Assembly: GCA_009840385.1 (NCBI GenBank)
Contig: VXNX01000009.1
Span: forward strand, 101,585-165,584
Reading direction: 5' to 3'
Source: Candidatus Dadabacteria bacterium
Lineage (GTDB): Bacteria > Desulfobacterota_D > UBA1144 > Nemesobacterales > Nemesobacteraceae
Length of the DNA stretch: 64,000 bases
Shown piece after piece: positions 35,421-48,499 of the stretch (positions within the stretch are counted from its first letter, which is position 1; each line of letters opens with the position of its first letter). Made by a program: the position numbers and the translations under genes. The notes below the pieces were generated by a model, which was not told the origin of the DNA, did no database searches, and saw only the letters and a program-made list of their open reading frames with translations.

Positions 35421-37091
35421 TCACTCTTCGGTAGAATCCCATTCACGAGAAGCCCATTCCAAAATCTTACGCTCTCTAAGTCTAATGGCTTTAATTGACC
35501 AGCGTTTATTTGATGCCACTTCAACTGCGATGAGAAGTCCAGTTTCTCTATATTTTTCAAATTTCTTTTTTGAGGGCATGCCGCCCAACCTAGAATTTAG
35601 ACTTGGTGGCAGGAGCAGAAGGTTTCCCAATCTATGTTTAACATGATCGGGTGCGGTATTTTGTGGATAGATATGCTCAATTGATTTAGAGGGGCTTACT
35701 GACCAAATTTTCTCCCACTGTTCATTTTTAAATTTGTTGCCCTTTTGCTTCGTTAGATACTCTTCATATCTGAACATAAAATATCTCAATTCCTCTTGCC
35801 ATCCCTCATAACAGTTTGCGTTTCGCAAGGCTTTTACCGCATCTTCAATTGGGAAATCATTTCCAATTGACCGAATTTCGTTGAATATTTCATCTACAGT
35901 AAGGTTTTCCCGGACTATTTTCCTTGCAAGCCTAGCATACTCACCCACGCGTGTTCGCGCATCGTGGCGAAGCATACCGTAAATTCTAAACGAAACCTTT
36001 TCCCAGATAGACAATAAGCGGGCTTGATCTTTTTTTGTCACTCTTTCGCAGAGGTGTATTGCAACAGCCAGCAAACGTGCCTGTGAAATTCGGGTAACAG
36101 CATTCAGTCGGTGTTTTGATACAACGGCATCACATGCTTTTGTTACTTGTAGAAGCCACCGGGCAACATCCCTTATCTCCCTTGCATCATGTGCTGCTGA
36201 TCGAAATTCGTCCACGGCAGCTTGCTCACTCATTGGACGATTTTGTGGCGTTGACGCACGAAGTGTTGCAGCAAAGCGCAGTGCCTCCGTACTCAGCCCT
36301 TGAGTTAGACCAACTGTGGAGTAAATATCACTCCAAATAATACGTAAATCTTTTATTAATTGTTCGCTATCTGCATCTTCCAGCGTATATGCAGCACCCA
36401 TAAGGATACTCTTGAGACGATCCAGCCAAGACACCTCCATTCCGCGACTGTTGAGTACTTCAAAAACTGTATAAACAGTTTTCTCATCTGATATTTCGTG
36501 CAAAATAAAAGATAGTCGATTTTTGATGTGTCCAACTAAGAGAGTCAATTCATGGCCATTTTCTACCCAATCTTTAACGAACTTTTTACAGTCTGCTATT
36601 GCTGCGAGAAGTTCTCGGTCCGCTAGCGTTTTGCCTTTTTCAGGATCTTCACTTTTACCGTAACGAATGAAATCTGCAAAATGATGGCTTGTATCATGGT
36701 TTGTTTGAAGTAGAAGGAGATTGTCACCACCGACTTTAACCAATAGCTCTTTAAGTTCTCGAGCGGTTAATTCTTCACCGGCATCCTCGCAATTGAGCGC
36801 CAGTCTTATTGCGTTTAATAAAATGATCAAGGTCGTCAGACGTTGTTGACCATCCACTATATCCAGTTTATGGAACTCATGAGTACCAAGTGTTATCTTC
36901 TTCTTCCGAAGACAAACAATAACTGCCATAAAATGGCTCGCATTCTCACCTTGAAGATTATTTATATCTTCAAACAGGTCTTTTCGTTCACGCGAAGTCC
37001 AACTGTATGCACGCTGATAATCTGGGATATTAAATAAACGCCCGTTGAGTAGATTTGCGAAGGTAAGATGCAGAGGTTGAATGTCGATCAT
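35421..37091 (-). CDS. DUF262 (ParB-like) plus DUF1524 (His-Me finger) protein, GmrSD-like type IV restriction endonuclease family
   Basis: N-terminal IPDYQRAYSW and VDGQQRLTTL DUF262 motifs. C-terminal nuclease-like region. 556 aa. Confidence 0.65.
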   Translation of the reverse strand: MIDIQPLHLTFANLLNGRLFNIPDYQRAYSWTSRERKDLFEDINNLQGENASHFMAVIVCLRKKKITLGTHEFHKLDIVDGQQRLTTLIILLNAIRLALNCEDAGEELTARELKELLVKVGGDNLLLLQTNHDTSHHFADFIRYGKSEDPEKGKTLADRELLAAIADCKKFVKDWVENGHELTLLVGHIKNRLSFILHEISDEKTVYTVFEVLNSRGMEVSWLDRLKSILMGAAYTLEDADSEQLIKDLRIIWSDIYSTVGLTQGLSTEALRFAATLRASTPQNRPMSEQAAVDEFRSAAHDAREIRDVARWLLQVTKACDAVVSKHRLNAVTRISQARLLAVAIHLCERVTKKDQARLLSIWEKVSFRIYGMLRHDARTRVGEYARLARKIVRENLTVDEIFNEIRSIGNDFPIEDAVKALRNANCYEGWQEELRYFMFRYEEYLTKQKGNKFKNEQWEKIWSVSPSKSIEHIYPQNTAPDHVKHRLGNLLLLPPSLNSRLGGMPSKKKFEKYRETGLLIAVEVASNKRWSIKAIRLRERKILEWASREWDSTEE

Positions 37092-37162: not shown

Positions 37163-38074
37163 TTAATATGAAAATTCAGAACAGATAGCTTCCCAGATGT
37201 ATTCTGCTGTCTCTTGCGGAGACATGAAATCTACATTATTTGTAAAAGCTAGCATTCCCATGGAATTTAATTTAAGCTCTCCTTCGTGTTCTTCCACAGA
37301 AATTATTTCGTTTGTTGATTTATCTTCACTCACATCTATATGGGTCCCATGTAGCATCCAAATTTCATCTCCCCACATTTGACCGTTTATCCATATTTTC
37401 AGGCTAGTCAATATATTTCCTTCATTGTAAAGAGTGAACAGCACTTTCCTTGTTGTTATCTTTTCGACTTCAAATTCAAAGGTCGGGTATTCATTTTTAG
37501 TTTCACGCACAAATTCACCAATGGCGAAGACTATATGCTCAAAAGATTCCCTAAGAAACTTTTTCTTTTCTTGATCGGAAAACGATCTCCTAAGCTTGGG
37601 TATATAGGACTTTGAGAAATTTGATTTGTTCAGCTTTCGCCCCTCATCTTGTTTCTTTCTTCCGATCTTCTGGAGGAAAAGGTCCACAATCTTTTCAGGT
37701 TCCGTACTTTCTGCAGAAACATATACGATAGTGTTAGGAAGTCCTGGAACATCGCCGGAAAAACCATCAAGACGAACTGGAAGTATATATGCTTCTCCTT
37801 TTTCTTGAATGCTTTTCTCCATAGCGTTTCTAAGCTCCCATACAGTCCACACTTTCTCTAGATAATAATCTGAAAGAATTATTATGCAGTACCGACTATC
37901 AGTGAAATATATTTCTCTCAATTTAACCGATAGATCTTCTCCCCATAGATTAGCGGGATTGAATTCATCATAAAAAACTTCGACTTTTTCCGCTTGTAAT
38001 GCGGTGGCTATAGCTTCAGCGAAATTTCTATTTTCACCCGCAAATGATAAGGCGACATCATATTTATATGTCAT
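37163..38074 (-). CDS. TIR-domain protein (ThsB-like)
   Basis: YDVALSFAGENRNFAEAIATALQAEKVEVFYD...IIILSDYYLEKVWTVWELRN matches the bacterial TIR_2 pattern, including the putative catalytic Glu. About 170 aa C-terminal extension of unknown function. Confidence 0.7.
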   Translation of the reverse strand: MTYKYDVALSFAGENRNFAEAIATALQAEKVEVFYDEFNPANLWGEDLSVKLREIYFTDSRYCIIILSDYYLEKVWTVWELRNAMEKSIQEKGEAYILPVRLDGFSGDVPGLPNTIVYVSAESTEPEKIVDLFLQKIGRKKQDEGRKLNKSNFSKSYIPKLRRSFSDQEKKKFLRESFEHIVFAIGEFVRETKNEYPTFEFEVEKITTRKVLFTLYNEGNILTSLKIWINGQMWGDEIWMLHGTHIDVSEDKSTNEIISVEEHEGELKLNSMGMLAFTNNVDFMSPQETAEYIWEAICSEFSY

Positions 38075-38179: not shown

Positions 38180-39031
38180 TTATGTTGTCGATTGTCTCAC
38201 AGCTCCAAGAGTGTGATTGACCGCGAGACGTAGATTGTCTTCTACACGAACTATAGTATCCATGCCATTATCTTCACCCAAACGACGAACAGTAATTGTG
38301 ATGTTAACAGACTCCCCATGAAATTCATCTACAAAAACTTGCTCTCTCCGTAAAAGTTGAGATGAGGTGATTAAGAATGAAATTTCAGGTTCGTCATCTA
38401 AAAAGAGATTCATGGAATTGGATGCAAAAACAAACCGGTCTATATCGGTTGGCAATTCCGAGAAAAGCGTCTGCATGTTTCCAGTTGGCCAATAAATCAC
38501 TTGAATCAGTACTACATACCGAAAACTTTTTCCATGATTGACAAAAGTCCATTCAATTCCCAGTTCATCACCATAACTAGCGACTTCAATGGCCCAATCA
38601 GTGTAAAAATTGGAGATTTCAGCTCTTGCTTGCGCTGGATTCGAGATTCGCGACAAAGACCGTAGCAGAAAGTTGAAACTTCCATCTATATCCTCACGAA
38701 AATCAATACAAGATTTTTCCTTGAGAAGTAAAGGAATTTCACAATCATCAAGTATGATGGGGATTAGTAAAACCGACTTTTCTTCTAATTCTCGTATCAA
38801 TCCGGCACGCAACTCCTTTTTGCACCATTCAGATTCAACAGAGTCCTTAGATAGCAAAACTAGTATCGCGTTCGCATCTCCCAAAGCTTCTTCGATCTTG
38901 GAGATCAAAGAGTCACCCGCATTGAGTTCCCATTTATCGATCCAAACATTCTGCTTTGCTTGAACTAGATTAAGTGCCAAATTCTCAGCGAAATCTCTGT
39001 CGGCCTTGTTGTAACTAATGAATACTGGCAA
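38180..39031 (-). CDS. TIR-domain protein (ThsB-like), second copy
   Basis: MPVFISYNKADRDFAENLALNL...AILVLLSKDSVESEWCKKEL TIR pattern. About 150 aa C-terminal region of unknown function. Confidence 0.7.
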   Translation of the reverse strand: MPVFISYNKADRDFAENLALNLVQAKQNVWIDKWELNAGDSLISKIEEALGDANAILVLLSKDSVESEWCKKELRAGLIRELEEKSVLLIPIILDDCEIPLLLKEKSCIDFREDIDGSFNFLLRSLSRISNPAQARAEISNFYTDWAIEVASYGDELGIEWTFVNHGKSFRYVVLIQVIYWPTGNMQTLFSELPTDIDRFVFASNSMNLFLDDEPEISFLITSSQLLRREQVFVDEFHGESVNITITVRRLGEDNGMDTIVRVEDNLRLAVNHTLGAVRQSTT

Positions 39032-39458: not shown

Positions 39459-39893
39459 ATGACGCCGGAAGAATATCTCAAGGATCGAGTTGAACAGCAA
39501 ATCAATTGGTACGACTGCAAAAGTACCCTTAACAAAAGATACTTTTACCTTTTACAAATCATTGTTTTGGTAATGTCCGCGGCTGTGCCAGTGGTTTCAA
39601 TACTATCCATAGTTTTTGAAAGCATATGGATACGGCTTGCCATAGGAATATTGGGTGCACTCGCAACTATAGCAACAGGGATTATTTCAATTTGCCAGTT
39701 TCGTAAGAATTGGATTGAATACAGGACAACGGCAGAATCGCTGAAGTGTGAAAAATACATGTTTAGAACTAAAACTGGTTTCTATGCAAAAAGTGGAACT
39801 TTTCCAGTGTTCGTAGAACGAATTGAAGCATTGATCAGCAAAGAGCACAAAAACTGGGAACAACATCTGAGAATCCAGAAACAAGCCGACTAG
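39459..39893 (+). CDS. SLATT-like two-TM protein (DUF4231-like predicted membrane effector)
   Basis: 144 aa. N-terminal WYDCKSTLNKRYFYLLQ followed by two hydrophobic helices and a short C-terminal tail, the SLATT/DUF4231 layout. First gene of the plus-strand operon. Confidence 0.5.
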   Translation: MTPEEYLKDRVEQQINWYDCKSTLNKRYFYLLQIIVLVMSAAVPVVSILSIVFESIWIRLAIGILGALATIATGIISICQFRKNWIEYRTTAESLKCEKYMFRTKTGFYAKSGTFPVFVERIEALISKEHKNWEQHLRIQKQAD

Positions 39894-39928: not shown

Positions 39929-40900
39929 ATGCCAGAAAATCGAAAAACTGAACTACGCGTTGCAGAAACGGTGCTGCCGTTGCCGTGCTTCTTCCCGTCA
40001 GTTTCAAGTGTAGTAAAAACCGACATGACACCAACTGATCATATAGAGCTTCTCGGTTTTTCCGCACACTCGCTCTTTCTTATTTCGGCATATGATGTTG
40101 CGAACTGCACTTACCAAGACCGAAAGCGCATAAAAACCGCACTTGATAAGAGCAAAAAACACGGGGCAGTAATACTGATGGATAGCGGTAATTACGAGGG
40201 GTTTTGGAAAGTAGACAAAACTTGGAAGGCAGATAATTTCCATGAAGTCGTAAAATCCTGTAAAAATGATCTTTGTTTTTGTTACGACAATCACAATCCC
40301 CCTGATTCCATAGAGACAATTGCGGAGGATGTGATTGCAAGAGTTATTCAAGATCAAAATCACACCAATGGGATCGTGTGTCCGATAATACACGGGGAAA
40401 CCACACTTCTGCCTGGTTCAGCCAAAAGGGTGGCAGAACAACTTTCTCCATTGCTTTTGGCGATTCCTGAACGAGAATTAGGAAAAGGAATAATTGGACG
40501 GATTCGGACTATAAAAAAAATACGAAAATCCCTAAACGATCTGGAAACTTATTGCCCCCTGCATTTGCTAGGTACGGGAGACCCCGTCTCAATCATTGCT
40601 TATTCAATGGTCGGGGCAGACAGTTTTGACGGATTGGAGTGGTGCAAAAGCGTTATAGATCACGAAACAGGTAATCAGCACGATTTTCAACATTGGGACT
40701 TTTTCCGGCATCAAACAAATCGAGAACTGCCGGAGAATTTTCCCCACAAGCAATCAGTCTTGATGCACAACTTGAATTTCTACAGACAGTTCATGAAGGA
40801 ACTACATGACGCTGTAAAGAATGAAGATACAGAAACGTTTCTGCGACGGTATACAACCGAAAACCAGGCTTCTTTATTGGTTGATGCAATCAAACAATAA
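39929..40900 (+). CDS. tRNA-guanine transglycosylase-fold protein, DpdA-like (predicted 7-deazaguanine DNA transglycosylase)
   Basis: ILMDSGNYEGFW (equivalent of the DSGGFQ substrate pocket) and PLHLLGTGDPVSIIAYSMVGADSFDG (equivalent of the LxGxGxP...D.FD segment carrying the catalytic Asp). No CxCxxC zinc site. Confidence 0.65.
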   Translation: MPENRKTELRVAETVLPLPCFFPSVSSVVKTDMTPTDHIELLGFSAHSLFLISAYDVANCTYQDRKRIKTALDKSKKHGAVILMDSGNYEGFWKVDKTWKADNFHEVVKSCKNDLCFCYDNHNPPDSIETIAEDVIARVIQDQNHTNGIVCPIIHGETTLLPGSAKRVAEQLSPLLLAIPERELGKGIIGRIRTIKKIRKSLNDLETYCPLHLLGTGDPVSIIAYSMVGADSFDGLEWCKSVIDHETGNQHDFQHWDFFRHQTNRELPENFPHKQSVLMHNLNFYRQFMKELHDAVKNEDTETFLRRYTTENQASLLVDAIKQ

Positions 40901-41604
40901 TGGGTAAAACGTTCGCAAACCAACTTCCGCTTTCGGTTATTAAAAACGCGATTCTAGATATTTGTATCGTCCTAGAAGAGCAAGAACTAATATTCACCTC
41001 TTCACCAACTTGCAGTGAAGACAATCTTTGGAGAGAACTTGTGTCCTGCATTCTGGGGAGCCGGGTCAGGTTTGAAACCGCTTGTGCTGCGGTAGAGCGG
41101 CTAGACGACATGTGTTTGTTATGCCACTCACGCCGCACATCAAACTTCGACCAATATGAAACTGACATACTGTCAACTCTTTCGGGAAAGTATCCGTTTT
41201 ATAAGCTTCGAGCAAATCAGATACGGCAGGCGGCGGAATCACTTTATGGTTCCGGGGGTTCAATTAAGAGTCTCTTGGATAATACAGTCGATTTCCGTGA
41301 GATGCGGCAATACCTGATATCTGAAATCCCAGGATTGGGACCAAAGCAGTCCAGCTTGTTTCTTCGCAATATAGGATACGCCGACAGCGTTGCTGTTTTG
41401 GATGTTCATGTTCTGACCTATATGAATTGGGTTGGTTTGACAACGGTTCTTGAGAAGTCAATTCCGACTATACGCAAATACGAAACGCTTGAGAACTCTT
41501 TCGTTGAACATTCCCTATCTTTAGGATATTCTCCAGAGCAGTTTGATCTTGCCGTGTGGTTAGTTATGAAGGTAGCAAGGAAGGAATATAAAACATGGGG
41601 ATAG
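40900..41604 (+). CDS. HhH-GPD superfamily DNA glycosylase, Ogg2/AGOG-like
   Basis: ISEIPGLGPKQSSLFLRNIGYADSVAVLDVHVL helix-hairpin-helix Gly/Pro loop plus a downstream Asp, typical of archaeal-type 8-oxoguanine glycosylases. Start overlaps the upstream stop. Confidence 0.55.
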   Translation: MGKTFANQLPLSVIKNAILDICIVLEEQELIFTSSPTCSEDNLWRELVSCILGSRVRFETACAAVERLDDMCLLCHSRRTSNFDQYETDILSTLSGKYPFYKLRANQIRQAAESLYGSGGSIKSLLDNTVDFREMRQYLISEIPGLGPKQSSLFLRNIGYADSVAVLDVHVLTYMNWVGLTTVLEKSIPTIRKYETLENSFVEHSLSLGYSPEQFDLAVWLVMKVARKEYKTWG

Positions 41605-42179
41605 TGACTCTTGTATCCGGAGGTGTCGACTCCATGCTCATGAGCCTTTTTGCTCACGAAGAGGGTGTCGAGTTATTTCCCCTTTTCGTTGATTATGGGC
41701 AGCTTGGAGTATCCAAAGAATGGGAGGCATGCAGGCGACTACACGAACAGTTTGGTCTGCCAGAGGTCACTTATATGGACCTCTCAGGTTTCGGAGAAAT
41801 TATTCCGAGCGGTATTACAGACTCCAGATTGAGAATAAACGAAGATGCTTTCCTACCTGGCCGCAACCTTCTTTTTGTGCTGGCCGGAGCAGCCTATGCC
41901 TTAAAGGTCCAAGCCGATAGCGTGGCAATAGGTCTGCTTTATCAATCGGACCATATTTTCCCAGATCAAGACGAAAAATTCATTGAAAGGTGTGAAGAAG
42001 TGATTGAAACAGCCATGGGAAAACATATTAATGTCATCGCTCCGTTAATAGAGTTTTCAAAAACAGACGTGCTGACTATGGCCCGTGCACGCGGACTAGA
42101 AAACACATATTCCTGTCACGCAGGAGGCGATAGACCCTGCGGGGTATGTATAGCGTGTGTTGAGATTGACAATGCCTAG
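41595..42179 (+). CDS. queC: 7-cyano-7-deazaguanine (preQ0) synthase
   Basis: VTLVSGGVDSM PP-loop and C-terminal zinc ligands CHAGGDRPCGVCIAC, 194 aa. Confidence 0.8.
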   Translation: MGIVTLVSGGVDSMLMSLFAHEEGVELFPLFVDYGQLGVSKEWEACRRLHEQFGLPEVTYMDLSGFGEIIPSGITDSRLRINEDAFLPGRNLLFVLAGAAYALKVQADSVAIGLLYQSDHIFPDQDEKFIERCEEVIETAMGKHINVIAPLIEFSKTDVLTMARARGLENTYSCHAGGDRPCGVCIACVEIDNA

Positions 42180-42193
42180 ACAAAGGAGGAATC

Positions 42194-42697
42194 ATGGGTG
42201 GTAAATACTCAGGTGGTGGCAGTCTAAGCCCAGAACACCTAGAAGAACTTGAGCAGAGTGCCAAGAAATCCATAGAAAAAGGGGTATCTGGAAAGGTAAA
42301 TGCGTTCATAAGCTTTGATTCTGAAGACCTCAATGAAGTTAACTTGCTGCGCGGTCAAGCCAAAAACGAGAATACCGATATCGAATTCAATGATTGGTCG
42401 GTTAAAGTACCCTTTAACAGCGAAAGAGCTGAGTACATTCGACGTCGTATCCGGGAACGTATCAGGCAGTGTTCAGTCACAATTGTTTATGTTTCCGAAA
42501 AGACAGCCAGCAGCAAGTGGGTTGATTGGGAAATAAGAGAGAGCCTTGCTATGGGTAAAGGAGTTGTTGCCATGCACAAAGGTTCTACACCACCCAGACA
42601 ACTTCCAAAAGCGATTAAGGAAAATAATATTCCCGTTGTGCCTTGGAACCAACGGGAATTGGCAAAAGCTATCAAAAAACAGTCGGAAAACCGATGA
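42194..42697 (+). CDS. TIR-like domain protein (DUF1863/ThsB-like)
   Basis: KVNAFISFDSEDLNEVNLLRGQ...CSVTIVYVSEKTASSKWVDWEIRESL fits the DUF1863 TIR-like pattern. Confidence 0.5.
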   Translation: MGGKYSGGGSLSPEHLEELEQSAKKSIEKGVSGKVNAFISFDSEDLNEVNLLRGQAKNENTDIEFNDWSVKVPFNSERAEYIRRRIRERIRQCSVTIVYVSEKTASSKWVDWEIRESLAMGKGVVAMHKGSTPPRQLPKAIKENNIPVVPWNQRELAKAIKKQSENR

Positions 42698-42716: not shown

Positions 42717-43460
42717 ATGAATATCGATCTTAATAACATAAACCATTTGCCGGAGGCTGAGCAGCATAAGCTTGAATCAATTAGAGACTTGTGCCATCAA
42801 GAAGAATACTCCCAAGAATTAGTCAGACATAGTCGGGTACAGCCATTAGTTCGGGAACTAAATGATTTTTGCATGTCTAATCGAGTTATTGGAATTCACT
42901 ATACTCGTGCAAACAAGACAAGCATAGTTAAGTACGGGTTATTGTGCCGTTCTGGTGATGAGATCAGGGAAACTTTTCTTGAAGAACACGGGAAGCTCTT
43001 TACAGATGAGGAGATATCCAAACTAAAAAGCACTTGGGATAGCACCTATTGTAAAGAAGAGGCTAGTAACCGAGATTTCATGATTTTTTTTAATTTTATT
43101 ATTACCGAAAATCCTTTACATAATGCGGCTACAGAGGATCTCCTGAACCACTATGGAGGTGAACAAATTCCAATATGCTTTTGTCAACCTCCTTTGTTCA
43201 TACAGGGCGGCACCAATAAAAAATGCTCAATCTGCAAGAAACTAAACCAAATAGGTGAACCATTATTAGTTAGATGCTCATTAGACCCCAAAACAGTTAA
43301 TACTTTTACCGAGAATCCATGGGGGAAGATTTTAGTTTCCTCATTTCATGTTGAAGTTAATCCCGAAGCTTGTCGCATAGACCAAGATGGTTATATTAAG
43401 AAGCCAGTTTCCCCTCAGAACATTCTTGAAGTTAAATTACTAACAGATAGTTTCAACTAA
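42717..43460 (+). CDS. hypothetical protein with paired-Cys (possible zinc-ribbon) motifs
   Basis: ICFCQPP...KKCSICKK Cys pairs and no recognisable family. In operon with queC and TIR-like genes (19-nt gap). Confidence 0.3.
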   Translation: MNIDLNNINHLPEAEQHKLESIRDLCHQEEYSQELVRHSRVQPLVRELNDFCMSNRVIGIHYTRANKTSIVKYGLLCRSGDEIRETFLEEHGKLFTDEEISKLKSTWDSTYCKEEASNRDFMIFFNFIITENPLHNAATEDLLNHYGGEQIPICFCQPPLFIQGGTNKKCSICKKLNQIGEPLLVRCSLDPKTVNTFTENPWGKILVSSFHVEVNPEACRIDQDGYIKKPVSPQNILEVKLLTDSFN

Positions 43461-43497: not shown

Positions 43498-43902
43498 ATG
43501 GTTACCTTACAGGAGCAAAGCCTAGATTGGGCTCTTGCGCATGTGGAAACATTCGGAGACACGGATGTTTTTCCAATACCCTTTGAGTACGAAGCAATTC
43601 GTCATGATTGGGAGGCATTAAAATTTCAACTTGCCGGACAGGACCTCTTAAAATGGACAGTGCGGCCACTTCGAATCTTGCCGGCACCGAAAGCTCGATA
43701 CGGGTTTCGAATAATAACCCAACTTGACCCTTTAGATTTCCTATTGTTTGCTGCAACTATACGAGAACTCTGTACCTCGATAGAGTCCAAGCGTATCTCT
43801 CCATCCGTAGTGTGTTCGTACAGAGTGGCACCAACGGAGAATGGCCAACTTTTTGACCAAAACTACTGGCAAATTCTCATTTGGGAAGATGATCAAATAT
43901 AG
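43498..43902 (+). CDS. hypothetical protein resembling the N-terminal (motif 0-2) region of a reverse transcriptase, possibly truncated
   Basis: RPLRILPAPKARYGFRIITQLDPLDFLLFAATI resembles the RT IPKxxGxxRPI...D(R)..Q segment. Only 134 aa. Ends about 15 nt from the 3' end of the convergent PHP-ATPase gene. Confidence 0.25.
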   Translation: MVTLQEQSLDWALAHVETFGDTDVFPIPFEYEAIRHDWEALKFQLAGQDLLKWTVRPLRILPAPKARYGFRIITQLDPLDFLLFAATIRELCTSIESKRISPSVVCSYRVAPTENGQLFDQNYWQILIWEDDQI

Positions 43903-43916
43903 AGGGCATAATTTTT

Positions 43917-46900
43917 TTAGGATATTTGATATTTTAAACGCCTTTTAAGAAATGCTGGCTGTGAACCTTCCAAAATATCTACTATTTTTTGATTGATACT
44001 AGGGTTTTCAATCGCGCCTGTTTCATAACTGAATTTGTAATTTTCCGCCTTTTCTAATTTGACGCATATAATCTGTTCAGCATCAGCTCCGACGGCCAGA
44101 TTAGGATTGTGGGTTACTAAAACAACTTGCCTGCTCCTCTTAGCTTTTCTTATACACTGTGACAGAACTCTAAAAATACTCTCATTATCCAAATTATCCT
44201 CAGGCTGATCAATTATGAGAGGAATGGTTTCCTTATCAAGTTGGAGATAAAAAACGAGTAATAACAATCCCTTTTCTCCTGGTGATAGTTCATTAAGATT
44301 TTTGCCGCCTAATTGGAGCTCATATTTTGCCGTCACGTATTCCAACGAAAACATAAAATCGTAAAACTTTTTGCTATCCATAACCTGATCACGTATTAGA
44401 ACAGGTTCCTCGTTATATAACGACATTTCCTGAATCACTCTATCAAAAAATGCGTAAACTGATTCAAAATCGTTCCAATCAACTCCAGCAACTAAGTCCC
44501 TTAAAAGGTTCTGAGGTTCGTTTGTCCCATGGAAGTAACCACGTTTCTTTTTGTTAATAAGTTTCAAGAAATCATCAGCAAACGAGTTATCAGTTACAAA
44601 AGACGCTTTAATTTCAACTGCAAATTCGTCAGTCTTAACAGAGTCAAGTTTGGATTCAACGCTATGTTTAAGCTCGGAATAAAAATTCAGAATTTGTTTT
44701 TTACTTTCAAAAATGTCTTTAACAATCTTTTTTCGTCTCTCACGTGCTTGGGAAATTTCTTCACTTAATTCACGATCAATATATGTAATTTTTCCTCTCA
44801 AATATCTTGTGGTTCCTGATTTTGGATCATCCGCACCACCAAGTATTTCGTCCTTTTGGGCATTCCACACAGCTAATTTCTCTAAATAGCTTTGATATTT
44901 TCTTTGAGGAGTTCCTAATTTGTCCTTTAATTCATTTATTTCCTCGACTAGGTGTGTGATCCCGGATTTTAAATCAGGTAGAGTCTCAAAAAACTCTGGT
45001 TGGGCATCTTTCACAAAATCCAGATTGCTGTCACTTTCAAGTTTCTGGATTTTAGCTTCTACCATAATAATCTGATCCTCAATAGGTTTTGTATTAATCT
45101 TACTTGTAATTATTTTTTCAATATCAAGACCCAGTTCATCACAGATAATCTTTAGTTCAGATCTTTGCCTTTGGATGTGCGTTTCTAATGATGATACATT
45201 CTGCAAAAGTGCTTTTAGTTTTTGCAACAGGTCCTTCTTCTGGGTTAATTCATCAATAAATTTTCTTTCCTCAGATGCTAATTTCTTTCTGCGCAATTCA
45301 AGTTGCTCTATCCGTTCAGTCAACTCTTTTTGCTCTTCAGATTCTTCATCGGGTTTGCTTATCTCAGCAGGCTTGGCTTCCTCCAGCGAACTCAATTCAT
45401 CTTCTCTAGCTCTCAGCTCCCCCTCTAGCCTCTTCCTAAATAGAGGATCAGATTGTTCTTCTAAATCAACTATTCCAATGTTGAGTTCACGAAGTTTAGT
45501 TTTCAGCAGACTGGTTTCCTGCTTGCTTTGCTGAGTTTTAAACTCCTGCAAATCCTTAAATGTTGCCTTCCCCATACGATCAGTTTCTTCAACATGTGAA
45601 AAAACAACATTCTCTATTTCCCTGCGAAACTGTTGAATCTCTATTTCGTTTGTTAGTTGCTCAAAGTAGTTTTGTGGCAGGTAGCGAACGGCTTCAGGCT
45701 GGCTTTCATCAATATCCTCGTCCAGTTGCTTAGAAATAGTTGAACCGCTCTGCCACTTTAACTTCGCCGTAAAATTCTCTGAATATCCGCGTTGCCGAAA
45801 TTTTTTATTATCTTTCTTGTTTATAAGGAAAGAAAAATTGTTTTCCTGTCTGCTATTGCTCAAAAGGCCGATAATATCAACCAAAGCGCTCTTTCCATTC
45901 CCCTTGTTACCAATGATAACAACTAGTTCCGGGTTTAACTGGATATTCACTTTTTTAAACCAATAGCCATTAACTCCGTCGTATCCCTCTTTCTGGTCAA
46001 TTTCTAGCTCCTTCAGAAACTTTGTGGCTTGGTTAGATTTCCTTATCTCAACCTCTGGTTCAGAACCAATATGAACTCTCGCTTCAGGTTCAAAGCAAAT
46101 TTGTTCTAGGCCTCGAAACGTCAGATCCGCTTTAATCCATGTCGGCTCATATCCAGAGACATCTCCTCCTAAACGCTCCAAGTCGTCAAAAGAGTGAGCA
46201 TCGCTTGCAGAGACAACTGGTTTAGGCCGTGATTTACCGTCTTTATAGCGATCAGGTTGTAGAAACCAACCCCTGCTTTTAGAATCACCGAAAAATAAAT
46301 GACTTCCCTTGTCTATCTTGTCAGAAATCAAAACTTTTCGAGGTGCTCTGCTATCAGTACTCCTTATACCATCGTTTTTAGCTGGAAACGCAATAAGGTA
46401 AGGCCTTGTTTCTCCAAAAGTCTCTTCCAAAGCCTCTCTGAGTTCTTCGAAAGAGACGGTCGCTGCCTTATATTGTGATTGGGTTCTAAGTTCAGCACAC
46501 GAAATTCTTGCTCCAGTCTCCTTGTTAGCTGAAGTTTTAAGCGTTAACAAGAAACGATTTATCGAATCTTTCGAGCAAACCTCTGTGTCATTGTCAAAGA
46601 TCACATGAATGTTCGGGTTGCTATTTTCCGGGCTAATTGCTTCAACCAATCTAAACTCAATATTCGGGAAGAAAACTTTATCAGTTTCAGGATATTTCTT
46701 TTTATATTTTTCCAACAAAGAGAAATAGCCATCGGCACTAAAATAATCCGTAATGCCAAATGCTTGAACTAGGGATTTCTCTAAACAATCAATGTATTCA
46801 TCCCACACATTCTCTTCGTTCCCATAAGAGTCAGCTAACTTTGTTCCCGGCGTATGTATATGCAAATCCCAGCGTCGCCACTGAGAACCTTTTTTTGAAT

Positions 46901-46925
46901 TCAAGCTGCTCTTTTTCTTTGTCAT
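43917..46925 (-). CDS. PHP-domain phosphoesterase fused to a Rad50/SbcC-like SMC-type ABC ATPase
   Basis: N-terminal WDLHIHTPGT PHP metal-binding motif. Walker A IIGNKGNGKSALVDIIGL near aa 340. About 200 aa coiled-coil rich in E/K/L/Q. LSPGEKGLLLLVF signature. Walker B/D-loop PLIIDQPEDNLD and H-loop VVLVTHNP. 1002 aa. Confidence 0.65.
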   Translation of the reverse strand: MTKKKSSLNSKKGSQWRRWDLHIHTPGTKLADSYGNEENVWDEYIDCLEKSLVQAFGITDYFSADGYFSLLEKYKKKYPETDKVFFPNIEFRLVEAISPENSNPNIHVIFDNDTEVCSKDSINRFLLTLKTSANKETGARISCAELRTQSQYKAATVSFEELREALEETFGETRPYLIAFPAKNDGIRSTDSRAPRKVLISDKIDKGSHLFFGDSKSRGWFLQPDRYKDGKSRPKPVVSASDAHSFDDLERLGGDVSGYEPTWIKADLTFRGLEQICFEPEARVHIGSEPEVEIRKSNQATKFLKELEIDQKEGYDGVNGYWFKKVNIQLNPELVVIIGNKGNGKSALVDIIGLLSNSRQENNFSFLINKKDNKKFRQRGYSENFTAKLKWQSGSTISKQLDEDIDESQPEAVRYLPQNYFEQLTNEIEIQQFRREIENVVFSHVEETDRMGKATFKDLQEFKTQQSKQETSLLKTKLRELNIGIVDLEEQSDPLFRKRLEGELRAREDELSSLEEAKPAEISKPDEESEEQKELTERIEQLELRRKKLASEERKFIDELTQKKDLLQKLKALLQNVSSLETHIQRQRSELKIICDELGLDIEKIITSKINTKPIEDQIIMVEAKIQKLESDSNLDFVKDAQPEFFETLPDLKSGITHLVEEINELKDKLGTPQRKYQSYLEKLAVWNAQKDEILGGADDPKSGTTRYLRGKITYIDRELSEEISQARERRKKIVKDIFESKKQILNFYSELKHSVESKLDSVKTDEFAVEIKASFVTDNSFADDFLKLINKKKRGYFHGTNEPQNLLRDLVAGVDWNDFESVYAFFDRVIQEMSLYNEEPVLIRDQVMDSKKFYDFMFSLEYVTAKYELQLGGKNLNELSPGEKGLLLLVFYLQLDKETIPLIIDQPEDNLDNESIFRVLSQCIRKAKRSRQVVLVTHNPNLAVGADAEQIICVKLEKAENYKFSYETGAIENPSINQKIVDILEGSQPAFLKRRLKYQIS

Positions 46926-47096
46926 CTGTTGTTCTTACTCATTGCGACAGAAAACCAGCATTATATGGGGGTATATAGACCTAGCTCTTCGTTCTTTTCC
47001 ACTCGCTTCGATTGATTTTCAACACTTACCCACATGCGGCAACTCAGATTCAAAACTACGTACTAAAGTTTAACGATGGGCTTTGCAGAAAAGATT

Positions 47097-48410
47097 TTAA
47101 TCATCTCTCCAGCCTTTTACCTCAAAAGTAAACTCCCCGGTGTCAATATCCTTACCAAGAGAATTCCAGAAATCGCGGTAAAACAATCCAATGAGTTCCG
47201 AAATCTCTTCAGGATTGCCCAACGAATATCTGGGAAATTCTATCAAACTTGGCTGCAATATTGTTGGATACATAGTGTCTATATGCCTGTTATTAGATGT
47301 TATGTATGCAGAGTTTCCTATTGCTCGAATCTCTGCATCGAGAACATATTCGGCAGTAGGAACAAGTGCTTGGTTCCTGACTCGGTCAGCCCAAGCCACT
47401 AGATTAGCAAAGACAACAACTGGAAAACTCCGTGGAAGGTCAAGTTTGCCTCCCGAACCAGCAGCTCTAAGACATGAAACAAAACCTATCTCTATCAAGC
47501 CGTCACAGTGAAGTTCTCTATAGCTATTGTATAAGCGATTCGTGTTTCCAGGACCCCAATCAGATTCCTCTCTCGCCGCGCGCAACATAGGTCGACATTG
47601 AACACTTGCGGAAGAAATTCCCATATCACTCAGAACATAAGGTTCTTGGTTGTCTTGCTTAATATATATCTTTCGCCATGGTTCATTGAACTCACTTACG
47701 ATTGCACTTCGGTGAAAAACCCGGTCAATACGGATTTCATCTCCTATTGGCATGGCGGTAAATCGGATTCCATACGCATCCGTAGGAGTTTCAAGACATT
47801 CAAATTCCTCTTGAAAACGGTTGCGGCGCACTGAAAGCCGTTCATCTAAACGCTCAAGCCCCCGCGCCATGTTGAGTGTCATGTCCTGAATTTCCCGCAT
47901 AGTCATTTTTTCACATCGGTCAAACCGCCGCACGGGACAGACAAGGATTTTTGTAACCCGATGGGGTGCCAGCCGCGAGCGTCCGACACGTATTATAACA
48001 ACACCGCTCTTACCTTGAGTAGGCACAGCGAATATCTCAAGCCTTGGAAGTTGTGGTTCCACGCGGTCACGAAACACAAGTTTGAGACGTTCTGCTAATT
48101 CTTCGCATCGCGGAACCGGCGATATATCATCCGTGACGGCCGGTTTCTTATCAAGATCACATTCTTTGATTCCTAGAAATAAAGCTCCTCCATGCGCATT
48201 TGCAAAGGCGGTAACCTCTTCAAGTATTACATTCTTCGCCCGATCCCCGATTTCATTTCCACCGGACATCCATGGATCGAGAGCACCTTCCTTGGCTGGC
48301 AGGCTCTCCTTAAATTCTATATGTTCGCCTTCTGGAACCCTCGAATCAACAAACGATTTAATGTGAGAACTGTCGATTTGCTCTGAGGGCATGGAAAGCA
48401 ACTCAGTCAT
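47097..48410 (-). CDS. Schlafen/AlbA_2-domain protein (putative nucleic-acid binding, defense-associated)
   Basis: N-terminal EGEHIEFKESL...ILEEVTAFANAHGGALFLGI matches the AlbA_2 (Schlafen-like) domain. C-terminal about 280 aa uncharacterised. Confidence 0.5.
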   Translation of the reverse strand: MTELLSMPSEQIDSSHIKSFVDSRVPEGEHIEFKESLPAKEGALDPWMSGGNEIGDRAKNVILEEVTAFANAHGGALFLGIKECDLDKKPAVTDDISPVPRCEELAERLKLVFRDRVEPQLPRLEIFAVPTQGKSGVVIIRVGRSRLAPHRVTKILVCPVRRFDRCEKMTMREIQDMTLNMARGLERLDERLSVRRNRFQEEFECLETPTDAYGIRFTAMPIGDEIRIDRVFHRSAIVSEFNEPWRKIYIKQDNQEPYVLSDMGISSASVQCRPMLRAAREESDWGPGNTNRLYNSYRELHCDGLIEIGFVSCLRAAGSGGKLDLPRSFPVVVFANLVAWADRVRNQALVPTAEYVLDAEIRAIGNSAYITSNNRHIDTMYPTILQPSLIEFPRYSLGNPEEISELIGLFYRDFWNSLGKDIDTGEFTFEVKGWRDD

Positions 48411-48499
48411 TAAATTGGTACCTCAACCCGTATCAAAATGGCAGGTATGCACGCTTAAGTCAATCAAGATTTAATATTGTTAAGTCTAACGCCAAGCGA

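What the first reader, a model, noticed from the sequence alone, without database searches (positions are those of the whole stretch)
39929..42697. Three N-glycosidic-bond enzymes (TGT-fold, HhH-GPD glycosylase, TIR) beside a preQ0 synthase suggest a deazapurine-nucleotide signal
TGT enzymes perform base exchange on guanine. HhH-GPD enzymes cleave base-sugar bonds in DNA. TIR domains cleave NAD+ and can base-exchange the nicotinamide moiety (as in His-ADPR formation by type II Thoeris). QueC supplies preQ0. One speculative reading is that the module produces a preQ0-containing ADP-ribose-like or nucleotide second messenger that gates the SLATT membrane protein, rather than or in addition to modifying DNA. 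Alternatively the glycosylase removes unmodified or damaged guanine as the restriction arm of a deazaguanine system.
Basis: inference. Interest (0 to 1): 0.6.

Follow-up and report, generated by a model that had tools for sequence, protein, structure and literature searches.

The report
Thoeris-like TIR system with deazaguanylation genes
This is an anti-phage operon in which a TIR signalling enzyme and a small membrane-killing protein sit with three genes borrowed from queuosine/DNA-repair chemistry. In a related, solved system those genes attach a 7-deazaguanine base to the signalling enzyme's own N-terminus and do not make a new messenger, so this is a new example of a recently described kind.

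Summary
Window 39929-42697 carries four intact, tightly packed genes: TGT-like, Ogg/HhH glycosylase-like, QueC-like and a ThsB-type TIR. A 144-aa SLATT 2-TM gene lies directly upstream.

The cassette is not a chance neighbourhood. In 76 genome loci from many phyla, 68 carry the three accessory genes in the same order next to this TIR.

The closest solved structures are Cap10 and Cap9 of type IV CBASS. There, Cap9 ligates 7-carboxy-7-deazaguanine to Gly2 of the signal synthase and Cap10 holds the modified tail. The Cap9 and Cap10 catalytic residues that could be aligned are kept here.

The TIR carries a roughly 37-residue N-terminal extension that starts MGG (family consensus MGGGGGGG). This matches the M(G/S)G(G/S)GG acceptor motif of type IV CBASS cyclases. 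The one relative without the cassette lacks the tail.

The TIR core is 32-34% identical to TIRs of validated type VII Thoeris (TIR + SLATT, cADPR signal).

Best reading: a Thoeris-type system whose TIR is primed by N-terminal deazaguanylation.

A December 2025 preprint already noted Thoeris operons with cap9/10/11, from bioinformatics only. Verdict: new member of a known kind, moderate interest.

The parts
39459..39893 (+). SLATT_1/DUF4231 two-transmembrane protein (144 aa): predicted membrane-disrupting effector, ThsH-like
   Evidence: Pfam DUF4231 2.9e-23 and SLATT_1 1.1e-14. NCBIfam SLATT_1 7.6e-38, above its cut-off. Two hydrophobic helices are visible in the sequence. Close homologues in L008, L037 and L054 (4e-47 to 4e-49) sit beside a TIR that is 56% identical to a type VII Thoeris ThsB.
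39929..40900 (+). Cap10-like remodelled TGT-fold protein (323 aa)
   Evidence: Best PDB sequence hit is Cap10 9ntn_A: 4.9e-7 as a single sequence, 8e-15 as a profile against 7e-7 for archaeosine TGT. The AF2 model (pLDDT 79) has 9ntn as top Foldseek hit, E 1.6e-11, TM 0.60. D85/S86, D120, H212 and D234 align to Cap10 D73/S74, D122, H226 and D248 and are invariant or nearly invariant in the family. No CxCxxC Zn motif is present. It falls below all NCBIfam TGT cut-offs.
40900..41604 (+). Cap11-like Ogg2-type HhH glycosylase/lyase (234 aa)
   Evidence: Ogg-HhH 3.5e-25. Best PDB hits are archaeal Ogg 3fhg and 3fhf. The catalytic Lys (K149 in GLGPKQSS) and Asp (D168 in LDVH) are invariant across 11 family members. 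It scores 96 bits against the NCBIfam Ogg cut-off of 183.
41595..42179 (+). Cap9-like minimal QueC-family ATP-dependent ligase (194 aa)
   Evidence: Best PDB hit is Cap9 9nto_B at 1.9e-14, just ahead of QueC 3bl5 at 3.5e-13. It has SGGVDS (S8-S13), YGQx5E, RN, FPDQ (Cap9 Y115 becomes F; D117 is kept), PLx4K and the four-Cys Zn cluster, which are the Cap9-cluster motifs listed in PMC13082051. It scores 117 bits against the QueC equivalog cut-off of 150.
42194..42697 (+). ThsB-type TIR (167 aa) with N-terminal acceptor tail: predicted NAD+-consuming signal synthase and substrate of Cap9/Cap10
   Evidence: ThsB_TIR 3.9e-24 over residues 38-129. The catalytic Glu E113 in WVDWE is invariant. The core is 32-34% identical to TIR domains of type VII Thoeris systems. 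More than 1,382 homologue clusters were found, most of them 167-168 aa.
42194..42304 (+). N-terminal extension of the TIR (residues 1-37): MGGKYSGGGS tail plus a predicted helix (LSPEHLEELEQSAKKSIEKG)
   Evidence: Among the top 120 homologues, 65 start MGGGGGGGRGLT and the window's clade starts MGGKYSGGGS. The tail co-occurs with the full cassette in 66 of 69 scorable genome loci, and the one cassette-less locus (L038) has no tail. It matches the M(G/S)G(G/S)GG acceptor motif of type IV CBASS CD-NTases at positions 1-3. BcTir and type VII ThsBs lack this extension.
38180..39031 (-). Possible additional ThsB (TIR_2 plus a C-terminal domain, 283 aa), divergently transcribed from the SLATT operon; membership uncertain
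   Evidence: TIR_2 1.9e-29. An SEWCKKEL catalytic-Glu motif is visible in the sequence. The gene is conserved at 92% identity in the same divergent position in the Poribacteria relative L085, but is absent from L001.

Best explanation
The locus is a Thoeris-type abortive-infection system with a SLATT effector, closest to type VII Thoeris. Its TIR enzyme is controlled by the Cap9/Cap10/Cap11 'deazaguanylation' module known from type IV CBASS.

Proposed steps:
1. Met1 of the TIR is removed, exposing Gly2 (inferred).
2. The QueC-like Cap9 homologue adenylates host-made 7-carboxy-7-deazaguanine. It ligates this to the Gly2 amine, giving an N-terminal 7-amido-7-deazaguanine (NDG) tag. This is inferred by homology and motif conservation.
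3. The TGT-like Cap10 homologue binds the tagged tail in its base pocket and holds the TIR inactive. On infection it may use its conserved Asp nucleophile (D234) to transfer the tethered base through N9 onto a ribose-containing target that is still unknown. This step is inferred, and the target is unknown even in CBASS.
4. The Ogg-like Cap11 homologue keeps its catalytic Lys and Asp. It reverses or proofreads that attachment and so limits autoimmunity (inferred).
5. The activated TIR cleaves NAD+ through E113 to make a cyclic ADP-ribose-type signal. Canonical cADPR is the best guess, by analogy with type VII Thoeris.
6. That signal drives the 144-aa SLATT protein to breach the membrane (inferred).

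Shown here: gene identities, the conserved catalytic residues, conserved synteny, and the link between tail and cassette. All biochemical steps are inferred.
For: - **Closest solved structures.** By sequence, profile and predicted fold they are Cap10 and Cap9.
- **Cap10 residues.** The readout and nucleophile residues D73/S74, D122, H226 and D248 map to D85/S86, D120, H212 and D234, which are invariant or (S86) nearly invariant.
- **Cap9 motifs.** SGGxDS, the aromatic-x-Asp pair and the Zn cluster are present.
- **Housekeeping thresholds.** All three accessory proteins fail the NCBIfam thresholds for the housekeeping enzymes.
- **Acceptor tail.** The TIR has a Gly-rich N-terminal extension like the type IV CBASS acceptor motif.
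- **Tail and cassette co-occur.** They occur together in 66 of 69 scorable loci. The single cassette-less relative has a different N-terminus.
- **Synteny.** The order TGT-Ogg-QueC-TIR is conserved in 68 of 76 genomes across many phyla.
- **Variable effectors, as expected of a signalling system.** These are SLATT, TPR-S proteins, and a hydrolase plus TPR-S protease.
- **Link to type VII Thoeris.** The TIR core is 32-34% identical to type VII Thoeris TIRs, for which the preprint reports canonical cADPR. Relatives carry a complete type VII-like SLATT plus ThsB pair beside the cassette.
- **Literature.** Wassarman et al. give the Cap9/Cap10 mechanism. A preprint reports Thoeris operons with cap9/10/11 and AF3-predicted ThsB-Cap10 and ThsB-Cap9 complexes.
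Against: - No experiment exists for any TIR-linked cassette.
- The window's tail (MGGKYS...) departs from the CBASS motif at positions 4-6.
- The equivalent of Cap10 K154 could not be aligned.
- Sequence discriminates Cap9 from QueC only weakly (1.9e-14 against 3.5e-13).
- The closest solved TIR, BcTir, was reported to lack NADase activity in vitro.
- Many relatives carry a second, untailed type VII ThsB next to SLATT. The tailed TIR may therefore not be the primary signal source there.
- The 144-aa SLATT has no recognisable ligand-binding domain.
- The window was not surveyed for CDG-supply genes (queD/queE/folE); none is among the island ORFs scanned.
Confidence: 0.72

Rival explanations
1. 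The tailed TIR is a regulator or adaptor and not the signal synthase. Another ThsB makes the signal for SLATT: TIRm2 at 38180-39031 here, or the small untailed type VII ThsB in relatives. The Cap9/10/11-tagged TIR would tune or license that response.
For: - Of the 76 genome loci, 25 carry a second, catalytically intact TIR; in many it is a ~132-aa TIR that sits next to SLATT and is 56% identical to a type VII ThsB.
- TIRm2 is conserved divergently from SLATT in L085.
- BcTir, the closest solved TIR, was reported as a non-catalytic regulator.
Against: - The catalytic Glu E113 and the surrounding motif are invariant in the tailed TIR family.
- Many loci, including L006 and L001, have no other TIR near the cassette.
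- In type IV CBASS the tagged protein is the signal synthase itself, and its catalytic Asp residues are essential.
Confidence: 0.13
2. The enzymes build a diffusible deazapurine nucleotide, for example preQ0-ADPR made by TIR or TGT base exchange, and it gates SLATT.
For: - TIR domains can base-exchange nicotinamide (established for His-ADPR in type II Thoeris).
- N9 of the deazaguanine stays free in the Cap9 product.
- A PfkB-type kinase-like gene joins the cassette in proteobacterial relatives, hinting at ribose or nucleoside chemistry.
Against: - Homologous Cap9 and Cap10 act on a protein N-terminus and release no free base.
- The same cassette serves CD-NTases, which have no NAD chemistry.
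- The conserved Gly tail that co-occurs with the cassette has no role in a small-molecule model.
- The QueC-like protein falls below the QueC equivalog threshold.
- Type VII TIR-SLATT pairs are reported to signal with plain cADPR and have no such genes.
Confidence: 0.06
3. This is a 7-deazaguanine DNA or RNA modification-restriction system. The TGT-like enzyme inserts preQ0 into nucleic acid, and the Ogg-like glycosylase attacks unmodified or modified guanine.
For: - Dpd systems use a TGT-like DpdA with QueC.
- The Ogg-like protein keeps an intact HhH motif and its catalytic Lys and Asp.
Against: - No DpdB, DpdC or Dpd restriction genes lie in the island.
- The TGT-like protein lacks the Zn subdomain, and its closest structure is Cap10, whose nucleic-acid surface is remodelled.
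- The obligate link to a tailed TIR and variable signalling effectors is unexplained by this model.
Confidence: 0.03
4. The genes are unrelated neighbours that happen to lie together in a defence island.
For: The region is a mosaic, low-GC defence island with several unrelated systems.
Against: - The order is identical in 68 of 76 loci from many phyla.
- The reading frames overlap or are 14-35 nt apart.
Confidence: 0.02

Closest known systems
Type IV CBASS ancillary module Cap9 (QueC-like), Cap10 (TGT-like), Cap11 (OGG-like); Wassarman et al. 2025, PDB 9ntn and 9nto
   Same: - The same three accessory families are present, and Cap10 and Cap9 are the best solved matches.
- The aligned catalytic and base-readout residues are conserved.
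- The partner enzyme has a Gly-rich N-terminal extension starting M-G-G.
- A membrane effector accompanies the system.
   Different: - The partner is a ThsB-type TIR, not a CD-NTase, so this is not a CBASS.
- Sequences are distant: about 21% identity to Cap10 in the structural alignment.
- The QueC-like clade has FPDQ where Cap9 has YxDC.
- The Ogg-like gene is present in 69 of 76 TIR-linked loci, against about one third of type IV CBASS operons.
- The window's tail is MGGKYSGGGS, not M(G/S)G(G/S)GG.
Type VII Thoeris (ThsB TIR + ThsH SLATT effector; canonical cADPR signal), preprint 10.64898/2025.12.03.692087
   Same: - A TIR and a SLATT gene lie in one operon.
- The TIR core is 32-34% identical to type VII TIR domains.
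- Close SLATT homologues pair with a TIR 56% identical to a type VII ThsB.
   Different: - Three extra accessory genes are present.
- The TIR has a ~37-residue N-terminal tail that type VII ThsBs lack.
- The signal has not been determined here.
[quoted passage not shown] 6G/S10B of the same preprint)
   Same: This is the same architecture in kind: a TIR and an effector together with cap9, cap10 and cap11. AF3 models there predict ThsB-Cap10 and ThsB-Cap9 complexes like those of CdnD.
   Different: The preprint describes it only in a short bioinformatic passage and tested nothing. This Poribacteria example, its tail variant and its SLATT_1-only effector are additional members. I could not check whether identical operons are in their figure.
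QatABCD (QatC QueC-family ligase modifying the QatB N-terminus)
   Same: A QueC-family enzyme is repurposed for N-terminal protein deazaguanylation in phage defence.
   Different: There is no QatA ATPase, QatB or QatD TatD nuclease here. QatC has a remodelled active site, whereas this protein keeps the canonical QueC/Cap9 motifs.

Membership tests
Cap9/Cap10/Cap11 deazaguanylation module (type IV CBASS-type) | Minimal (~185-200 aa) QueC-family protein with SGGxDS pyrophosphate loop, aromatic/Asp base-binding pair and four-Cys Zn site | tested here: met
   The protein is 194 aa. It has SGGVDS, F/D at Cap9 Y115/D117, RN and CHx6CxxCxxC. Cap9 9nto_B is the best PDB hit.
Cap9/Cap10/Cap11 deazaguanylation module (type IV CBASS-type) | TGT-fold protein with Cap10 base-readout residues (D73, S74, D122) and the catalytic pair H226/D248, lacking the TGT Zn site | tested here: met
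   D85, D120, H212 and D234 are invariant and S86 nearly invariant. There is no CxCxxC motif. Cap10 is the best match by sequence profile (8e-15) and by predicted fold.
Cap9/Cap10/Cap11 deazaguanylation module (type IV CBASS-type) | Cap10 K154 base-contact residue | tested here: inconclusive
   This region of the profile-to-9ntn alignment is gapped and unreliable. An invariant H155 lies nearby, but equivalence is not shown.
Cap9/Cap10/Cap11 deazaguanylation module (type IV CBASS-type) | Partner signal synthase has an N-terminal extension beginning M(G/S)G(G/S)GG, with Gly2 as acceptor | tested here: inconclusive
   The family consensus MGGGGGGG meets it fully. The window's own tail, MGGKYSGGGS, keeps M1-G2-G3 but has K-Y-S at positions 4-6.
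Cap9/Cap10/Cap11 deazaguanylation module (type IV CBASS-type) | OGG-like Cap11 with glycosylase catalytic residues (an optional component in CBASS) | tested here: met
   K149 and D168 are invariant. The best PDB hits are archaeal Ogg enzymes.
Cap9/Cap10/Cap11 deazaguanylation module (type IV CBASS-type) | Covalent 7-amido-7-deazaguanine (+176 Da) on Gly2 of the partner | not testable with these tools
   This requires mass spectrometry or a structure.
CBASS (any type) | A CD-NTase (SMODS) cyclase in the operon | tested here: not met
   No ORF from 35.4 to 48.4 kb gave a CD-NTase/SMODS hit in Pfam or PADLOC. The partner is a TIR, so the locus should not be filed as CBASS.
Thoeris (type VII-like) | ThsB-type TIR with the catalytic Glu | tested here: met
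   ThsB_TIR 3.9e-24. E113 in WVDWE is invariant.
Thoeris (type VII-like) | Homology of the TIR to type VII ThsB proteins | tested here: met
   The core is 32% identical (E 3e-14) and 34% identical (E 1e-16) to two type VII TIR-domain sequences from the preprint's Table S1. The first is from a system that defended in E. coli; the second (Bacillus sp. P003) showed no defence when tested.
Thoeris (type VII-like) | SLATT-domain effector (ThsH) in the operon | tested here: met
   SLATT_1/DUF4231 lies 35 nt upstream of the cassette.
Thoeris (type VII-like) | Phage-triggered production of canonical cADPR that activates the effector | not testable with these tools
   This requires LC-MS of infected lysates.
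Canonical queuosine/preQ0 pathway enzymes (QueC, Tgt) and housekeeping Ogg | Score above NCBIfam equivalog or superfamily cut-offs | tested here: not met
   QueC scores 117.2 against a cut-off of 150.3. tgt_general scores 21.9 against 47.6. Ogg scores 96.2 against 183.
Dpd 7-deazaguanine DNA modification/restriction | DpdA with DpdB/DpdC, plus DpdD-K restriction genes | tested here: not met
   No such genes are among the island ORFs scanned with Pfam and PADLOC.

The most novel reading that the evidence does not exclude
The deazaguanine tag on the TIR may be a reactive handle and not only a regulatory clamp. N9 of the tethered base would be ribosylated, either by Cap10-type transglycosylation or by the TIR's own base-exchange on NAD+. 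This would give a protein-anchored deazaguanine-ADP-ribose (or nucleic-acid) adduct that nucleates TIR clustering or primes a new class of signal. The nearly universal Ogg-like enzyme would act as its eraser, and the PfkB-like kinase of proteobacterial relatives as a further tailoring step.
Probability: 0.08. Interest if true: 0.85.

Novelty: new member of a known kind. Interest (0 to 1): 0.4.

Why it matters
The acceptor onto which Cap10 transfers the tagged enzyme is the main open question for deazaguanylation-based immunity. The TIR-linked form offers a second, chemically unrelated signal synthase under the same control. That argues the module is a portable priming device and not part of nucleotide synthesis.

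The TIR-linked form also looks common. It occurs in 76 of about 186,000 species genomes, with more than 1,300 TIR protein clusters in metagenomes. It almost always keeps the Ogg-like gene. Several cultured hosts carry it (Agrobacterium, Ensifer, Ralstonia, Ruegeria), which could make the question experimentally tractable.

For this window itself, the result is mainly a correct annotation of a Poribacteria defence island.

Tried and rejected
- **Downstream 247-aa ORF (42717-43460).** I tested whether it is a diverged CD-NTase or a core component. It has no family hits. Its AF2 model has an ADP-ribosyltransferase fold. Its homologues sit in unrelated contexts, and only the two close Poribacteria relatives L001 and L085 carry it beside the cassette. 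It was rejected as a core part.
- **Remnant of the small type VII ThsB.** I looked between SLATT and the TGT-like gene in the window, L001 and L006 and found none.
- **Promoter and terminator scan of 38.9-44.1 kb.** Matches were at or below shuffle expectation, so it was uninformative.
- **Structure prediction with locus-derived sequences.** I rebuilt the alignment from database hits instead.
- **Burroughs et al. 2015.** This paper described the SLATT/SMODS/QueC/TGT/OGG associations, as I recall, but it is not held in the library, so it is not cited as evidence.
- **Phage carriage.** A scan of viral contigs gave only one locus, so the system is not notably phage-borne.
- **BcTir preprint's K37 claim.** It states that the catalytic Glu of BcTir is replaced by K37. 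By the HMMER alignment, K37 aligns to W68 here. The canonical W-x-x-x-E Glu (BcTir E82, E113 here) is present. I therefore did not take that paper as evidence that this TIR is inactive.


Full report
**Setting.** The finding lies in a low-GC island (GC about 0.37-0.44 against 0.50-0.56 in the flanks) from roughly 35.2 to 48.4 kb. The island sits between a pyruvate dehydrogenase E1 gene and dnaK. Two of its proteins are 100% identical to proteins that NCBI names from 'Candidatus Poribacteria bacterium', so the window is from a sponge-associated Poribacteria genome.

The island is a mosaic of defence genes:
- GmrSD (35421-37091, minus strand)
- two TIR proteins (37163-38074 and 38180-39031, minus strand)
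- the operon under study
- an unknown 247-aa gene
- the first 134 codons of a DRT8-like reverse transcriptase
- a Ppl-like PHP/ATPase (43917-46925, minus strand)
- a Schlafen/AlbA_2 protein (47097-48410, minus strand)

| ORF | Length | Family | Key scores |
|---|---|---|---|
| 39929-40900 | 323 aa | TGT-like | Pfam TGT 4.5e-9; PADLOC 'TGT' 3e-28 |
| 40900-41604 | 234 aa | Ogg/HhH-like | Ogg-HhH 3.5e-25 |
| 41595-42179 | 194 aa | QueC-like | QueC 3.4e-36 |
| 42194-42697 | 167 aa | ThsB-type TIR | ThsB_TIR 3.9e-24 |

A 144-aa SLATT_1/DUF4231 two-TM gene (39459-39893) lies 35 nt upstream. Neighbouring genes overlap by 1-10 nt or are 14-35 nt apart.

**Is the association real?** The TIR has more than 1,382 homologue clusters. 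The best 120 are 69-93% identical and almost all are 167-168 aa. A scan of one genome per species returned 76 loci. They include Poribacteria, Latescibacterota, Nitrospirota, Acidobacteriota, Planctomycetota and Chloroflexota. They also include Bdellovibrionota and many cultured Alpha-, Beta- and Gammaproteobacteria.

I searched the six-frame ORFs of these loci with the window's proteins. The QueC-like gene is present in 72, the TGT-like gene in 70, the Ogg-like gene in 69 and all three in 68. The order is always TGT-Ogg-QueC-TIR. Most exceptions are truncated contigs.

The effector next to the cassette varies:
- a SLATT_1-only protein like the window's
- ~300-aa SLATT_3+SLATT_1 proteins
- TPR-S / MAP3K_TRAF_bd proteins
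- an alpha/beta hydrolase plus a TPR-S-trypsin protein

A conserved enzyme core with swappable effectors is the usual signature of a signalling defence system.

**What the accessory proteins are.** The best solved relative of the TGT-like protein is Cap10 of type IV CBASS (9ntn). The single-sequence E-value is 4.9e-7. With a family profile it is 8e-15, against 7e-7 for archaeosine TGT. Its AF2 model (pLDDT 79) also hits 9ntn first, at E 1.6e-11, TM 0.60 and 21% identity. Bacterial TGTs follow at about 16% identity.

Cap10's base-readout residues D73/S74 and D122, and its catalytic pair H226/D248, align to D85/S86, D120, H212 and D234. All but S86 (nearly invariant) are invariant in the family. 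The TGT Zn motif is absent. K154 could not be placed.

The QueC-like protein's best solved relative is Cap9 (9nto, 1.9e-14), narrowly ahead of QueC. It has the Cap9-cluster motifs listed in PMC13082051:
- SGGxDS
- Y-x-Q-x5-E
- RN
- an aromatic-x-Asp pair (FPD here)
- P-L-x4-K
- the four-Cys Zn site

The Ogg-like protein resembles archaeal Ogg2 enzymes and keeps an invariant catalytic Lys (K149) and Asp (D168).

All three fall below NCBIfam's thresholds for the housekeeping enzymes. The scores are 117 against 150 for QueC, 22 against 48 for the TGT superfamily and 96 against 183 for Ogg. 'QueC supplies preQ0' is therefore an assumption, not an observation.

**What those homologues are known to do.** Wassarman et al. 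(bioRxiv 10.1101/2025.04.06.647259, cited in the Thoeris preprint as Science 389:1347) established the following:
- Cap9 uses the QueC adenylation mechanism to ligate 7-carboxy-7-deazaguanine to the free amine of Gly2 of the CD-NTase, giving an N-terminal 7-amido-7-deazaguanine (NDG).
- Cap10 binds the tagged tail in its base pocket, holds the cyclase inactive and appears poised to transfer the base through N9 to an unknown target.
- Cap9 and Cap10 are essential for defence. Cap11 is dispensable, but its loss raises toxicity.
- Every type IV CD-NTase has an N-terminal extension beginning M(G/S)G(G/S)GG.

**The TIR carries that tail.** The TIR domain proper starts at residue 38. Before it lies an extension, MGGKYSGGGSLSPEHLEELEQSAKKSIEKGVSGKV. 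Among the top 120 homologues, 65 begin MGGGGGGGRGLT and nearly all the rest are close variants. The window's Poribacteria clade has MGGKYSGGGS.

In the genome loci with enough upstream sequence, 66 have both a tail and the full three-gene cassette. Two Ogg-less loci (L019, L024) have degenerate tails that still keep Gly2. The one relative with no cassette (L038) has an unrelated N-terminus (MEFMTRQ...) and sits in a different island. The closest solved TIR (BcTir, 8fz9) and type VII ThsBs begin directly at the TIR fold.

This co-variation is the strongest evidence from the sequences themselves that the TIR is the substrate of the QueC-like and TGT-like proteins.

**Link to Thoeris.** A December 2025 preprint (10.64898/2025.12.03.692087) defines type VII Thoeris as a TIR plus a SLATT effector (ThsH) and reports that three of its TIRs produce canonical cADPR on infection. 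In a short passage it also notes Thoeris operons with cap9, cap10 and cap11. AF3 models there predict ThsB-Cap10 and ThsB-Cap9 complexes. Nothing was tested on those operons.

Its Table S1 gives TIR-domain sequences. The window's TIR core is 32% identical (E 3e-14) to the TIR of a type VII system that defended in E. coli, and 34% identical (E 1e-16) to a Bacillus sp. P003 type VII TIR that showed no defence when tested. The catalytic Glu (E113, WVDWE) is invariant.

In many relatives a second, untailed ~132-aa TIR sits between SLATT and the TGT-like gene. It is 56% identical to a type VII ThsB. Those loci therefore look like a complete type VII pair plus the cassette with its own tailed TIR.

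The window and its Poribacteria relatives lack that small ThsB, and no remnant is detectable. The window and L085 do have a divergently transcribed 283-aa TIR protein, 92% identical between the two.

**Mechanism proposed.** The steps are those given under the best explanation. Gly2 is exposed, the Cap9-like ligase installs NDG, and the Cap10-like protein clamps the tag and may transfer it. The Ogg-like enzyme reverses mis-transfer, the TIR makes a cADPR-type signal, and SLATT permeabilises the membrane.

What is shown here: gene identities, the conserved catalytic residues, synteny, and the link between tail and cassette. What is inferred: every chemical step, the nature of the signal, and which TIR is the main signal source.

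A free preQ0-ADPR messenger has three problems. The same cassette works with a CD-NTase, which has no NAD chemistry. It also leaves the conserved Gly tail without a role. And type VII TIR-SLATT pairs are reported to signal with plain cADPR and have no such genes. The restriction-arm alternative lacks all Dpd partners. A protein-tethered version, with ADP-ribose or nucleic acid joined at N9 of the tag, cannot be excluded, because the Cap10 acceptor is unknown.

Comparison with relatives L001 and L085 shows that window 43862-48488 (the Ppl-like and Schlafen genes) replaced the 3' 1.3 kb of an RT gene that is intact (523 aa) in the relatives.

**Verdict.** The locus is a new, untested member of a kind described in 2025. 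It is of moderate interest, mainly as a route to the unknown Cap10 target.

Noticed in passing
[not shown]
   Followed up: partly
window 43498-43902 (+) and 43862-48488: The 134-aa ORF is the N-terminal fragment of a DRT8-like reverse transcriptase (PADLOC Drt8 8e-38). Relatives L001 and L085 have the intact 523-aa RT followed directly by dnaK. In the window the RT's 3' part is replaced by 4.6 kb carrying a Ppl-like PHP/ABC-ATPase (1002 aa) and a Schlafen/AlbA_2 protein (437 aa) on the minus strand.
   Followed up: partly
window 37163-38074 (-) and 38180-39031 (-): Two further TIR proteins have C-terminal domains and apparent catalytic Glu motifs (KVWTVWEL, SEWCKKEL) and are divergent from the SLATT operon. 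The 283-aa one is 92% identical in relative L085 at the same position. They may be extra ThsB sensors feeding the same SLATT effector, or separate systems.
   Followed up: partly
L046:5831-7168, L064:6051-7244, L075:6100-7227 (and most of L041-L081): In the proteobacterial clade of the cassette, a ~380-aa gene with a PfkB-family (ribokinase-like) kinase domain sits directly upstream of the Cap10-like gene. It has no PADLOC hit. It could be an undescribed accessory gene pointing to ribose or nucleoside chemistry. It is absent from the window.
   Followed up: partly
L002:5281-5679, L008:7280-7675, L037, L054 and others: Of the 76 genome loci, 25 carry a second TIR; in many it is an untailed ~132-aa TIR (MAKxKIFISYDYDND..., WVAWE) between SLATT and the Cap10-like gene, and the L008 copy is 56% identical to a type VII Thoeris ThsB. 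Those systems therefore hold two catalytically intact TIRs. The Poribacteria clade lacks it, and L001 has an unrelated 263-aa gene at that spot.
   Followed up: yes
L019 and L024: The only two full-length loci lacking the Ogg-like gene also have degenerate tails (MGGYRRGSE, MGNKSNDYS) that keep Gly2. This may hint at co-evolution between Cap11 and the poly-Gly part of the tail. With only two cases it could be chance.
   Followed up: no
genome loci L006-L081 overall: The Ogg-like (Cap11) gene is present in 69 of 76 TIR-linked cassettes, whereas Wassarman et al. report it in about one third of type IV CBASS operons. The TIR-linked form was found in 76 species genomes, against the 49 type IV CBASS operons they list. 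The databases differ, so the comparison is rough.
   Followed up: partly
window 35421-37091 (-): A GmrSD-family type IV restriction enzyme (GmrSD_N 2.4e-30, GmrSD_C 4.2e-17) lies at the left edge of the low-GC island, next to the pyruvate dehydrogenase E1 gene.
   Followed up: no
literature: bioRxiv 10.1101/2023.05.26.542521 (BcTir, PDB 8fz9): That preprint says BcTir lacks the catalytic Glu (K37 in its place). By sequence alignment, BcTir keeps the canonical W-x-x-x-E Glu (E82, aligned to E113 here), while K37 aligns to an invariant Trp. A near-identical TIR serves in a type VII Thoeris system that defended in E. coli, and the Thoeris preprint reports cADPR production for three type VII TIRs.
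   Followed up: partly
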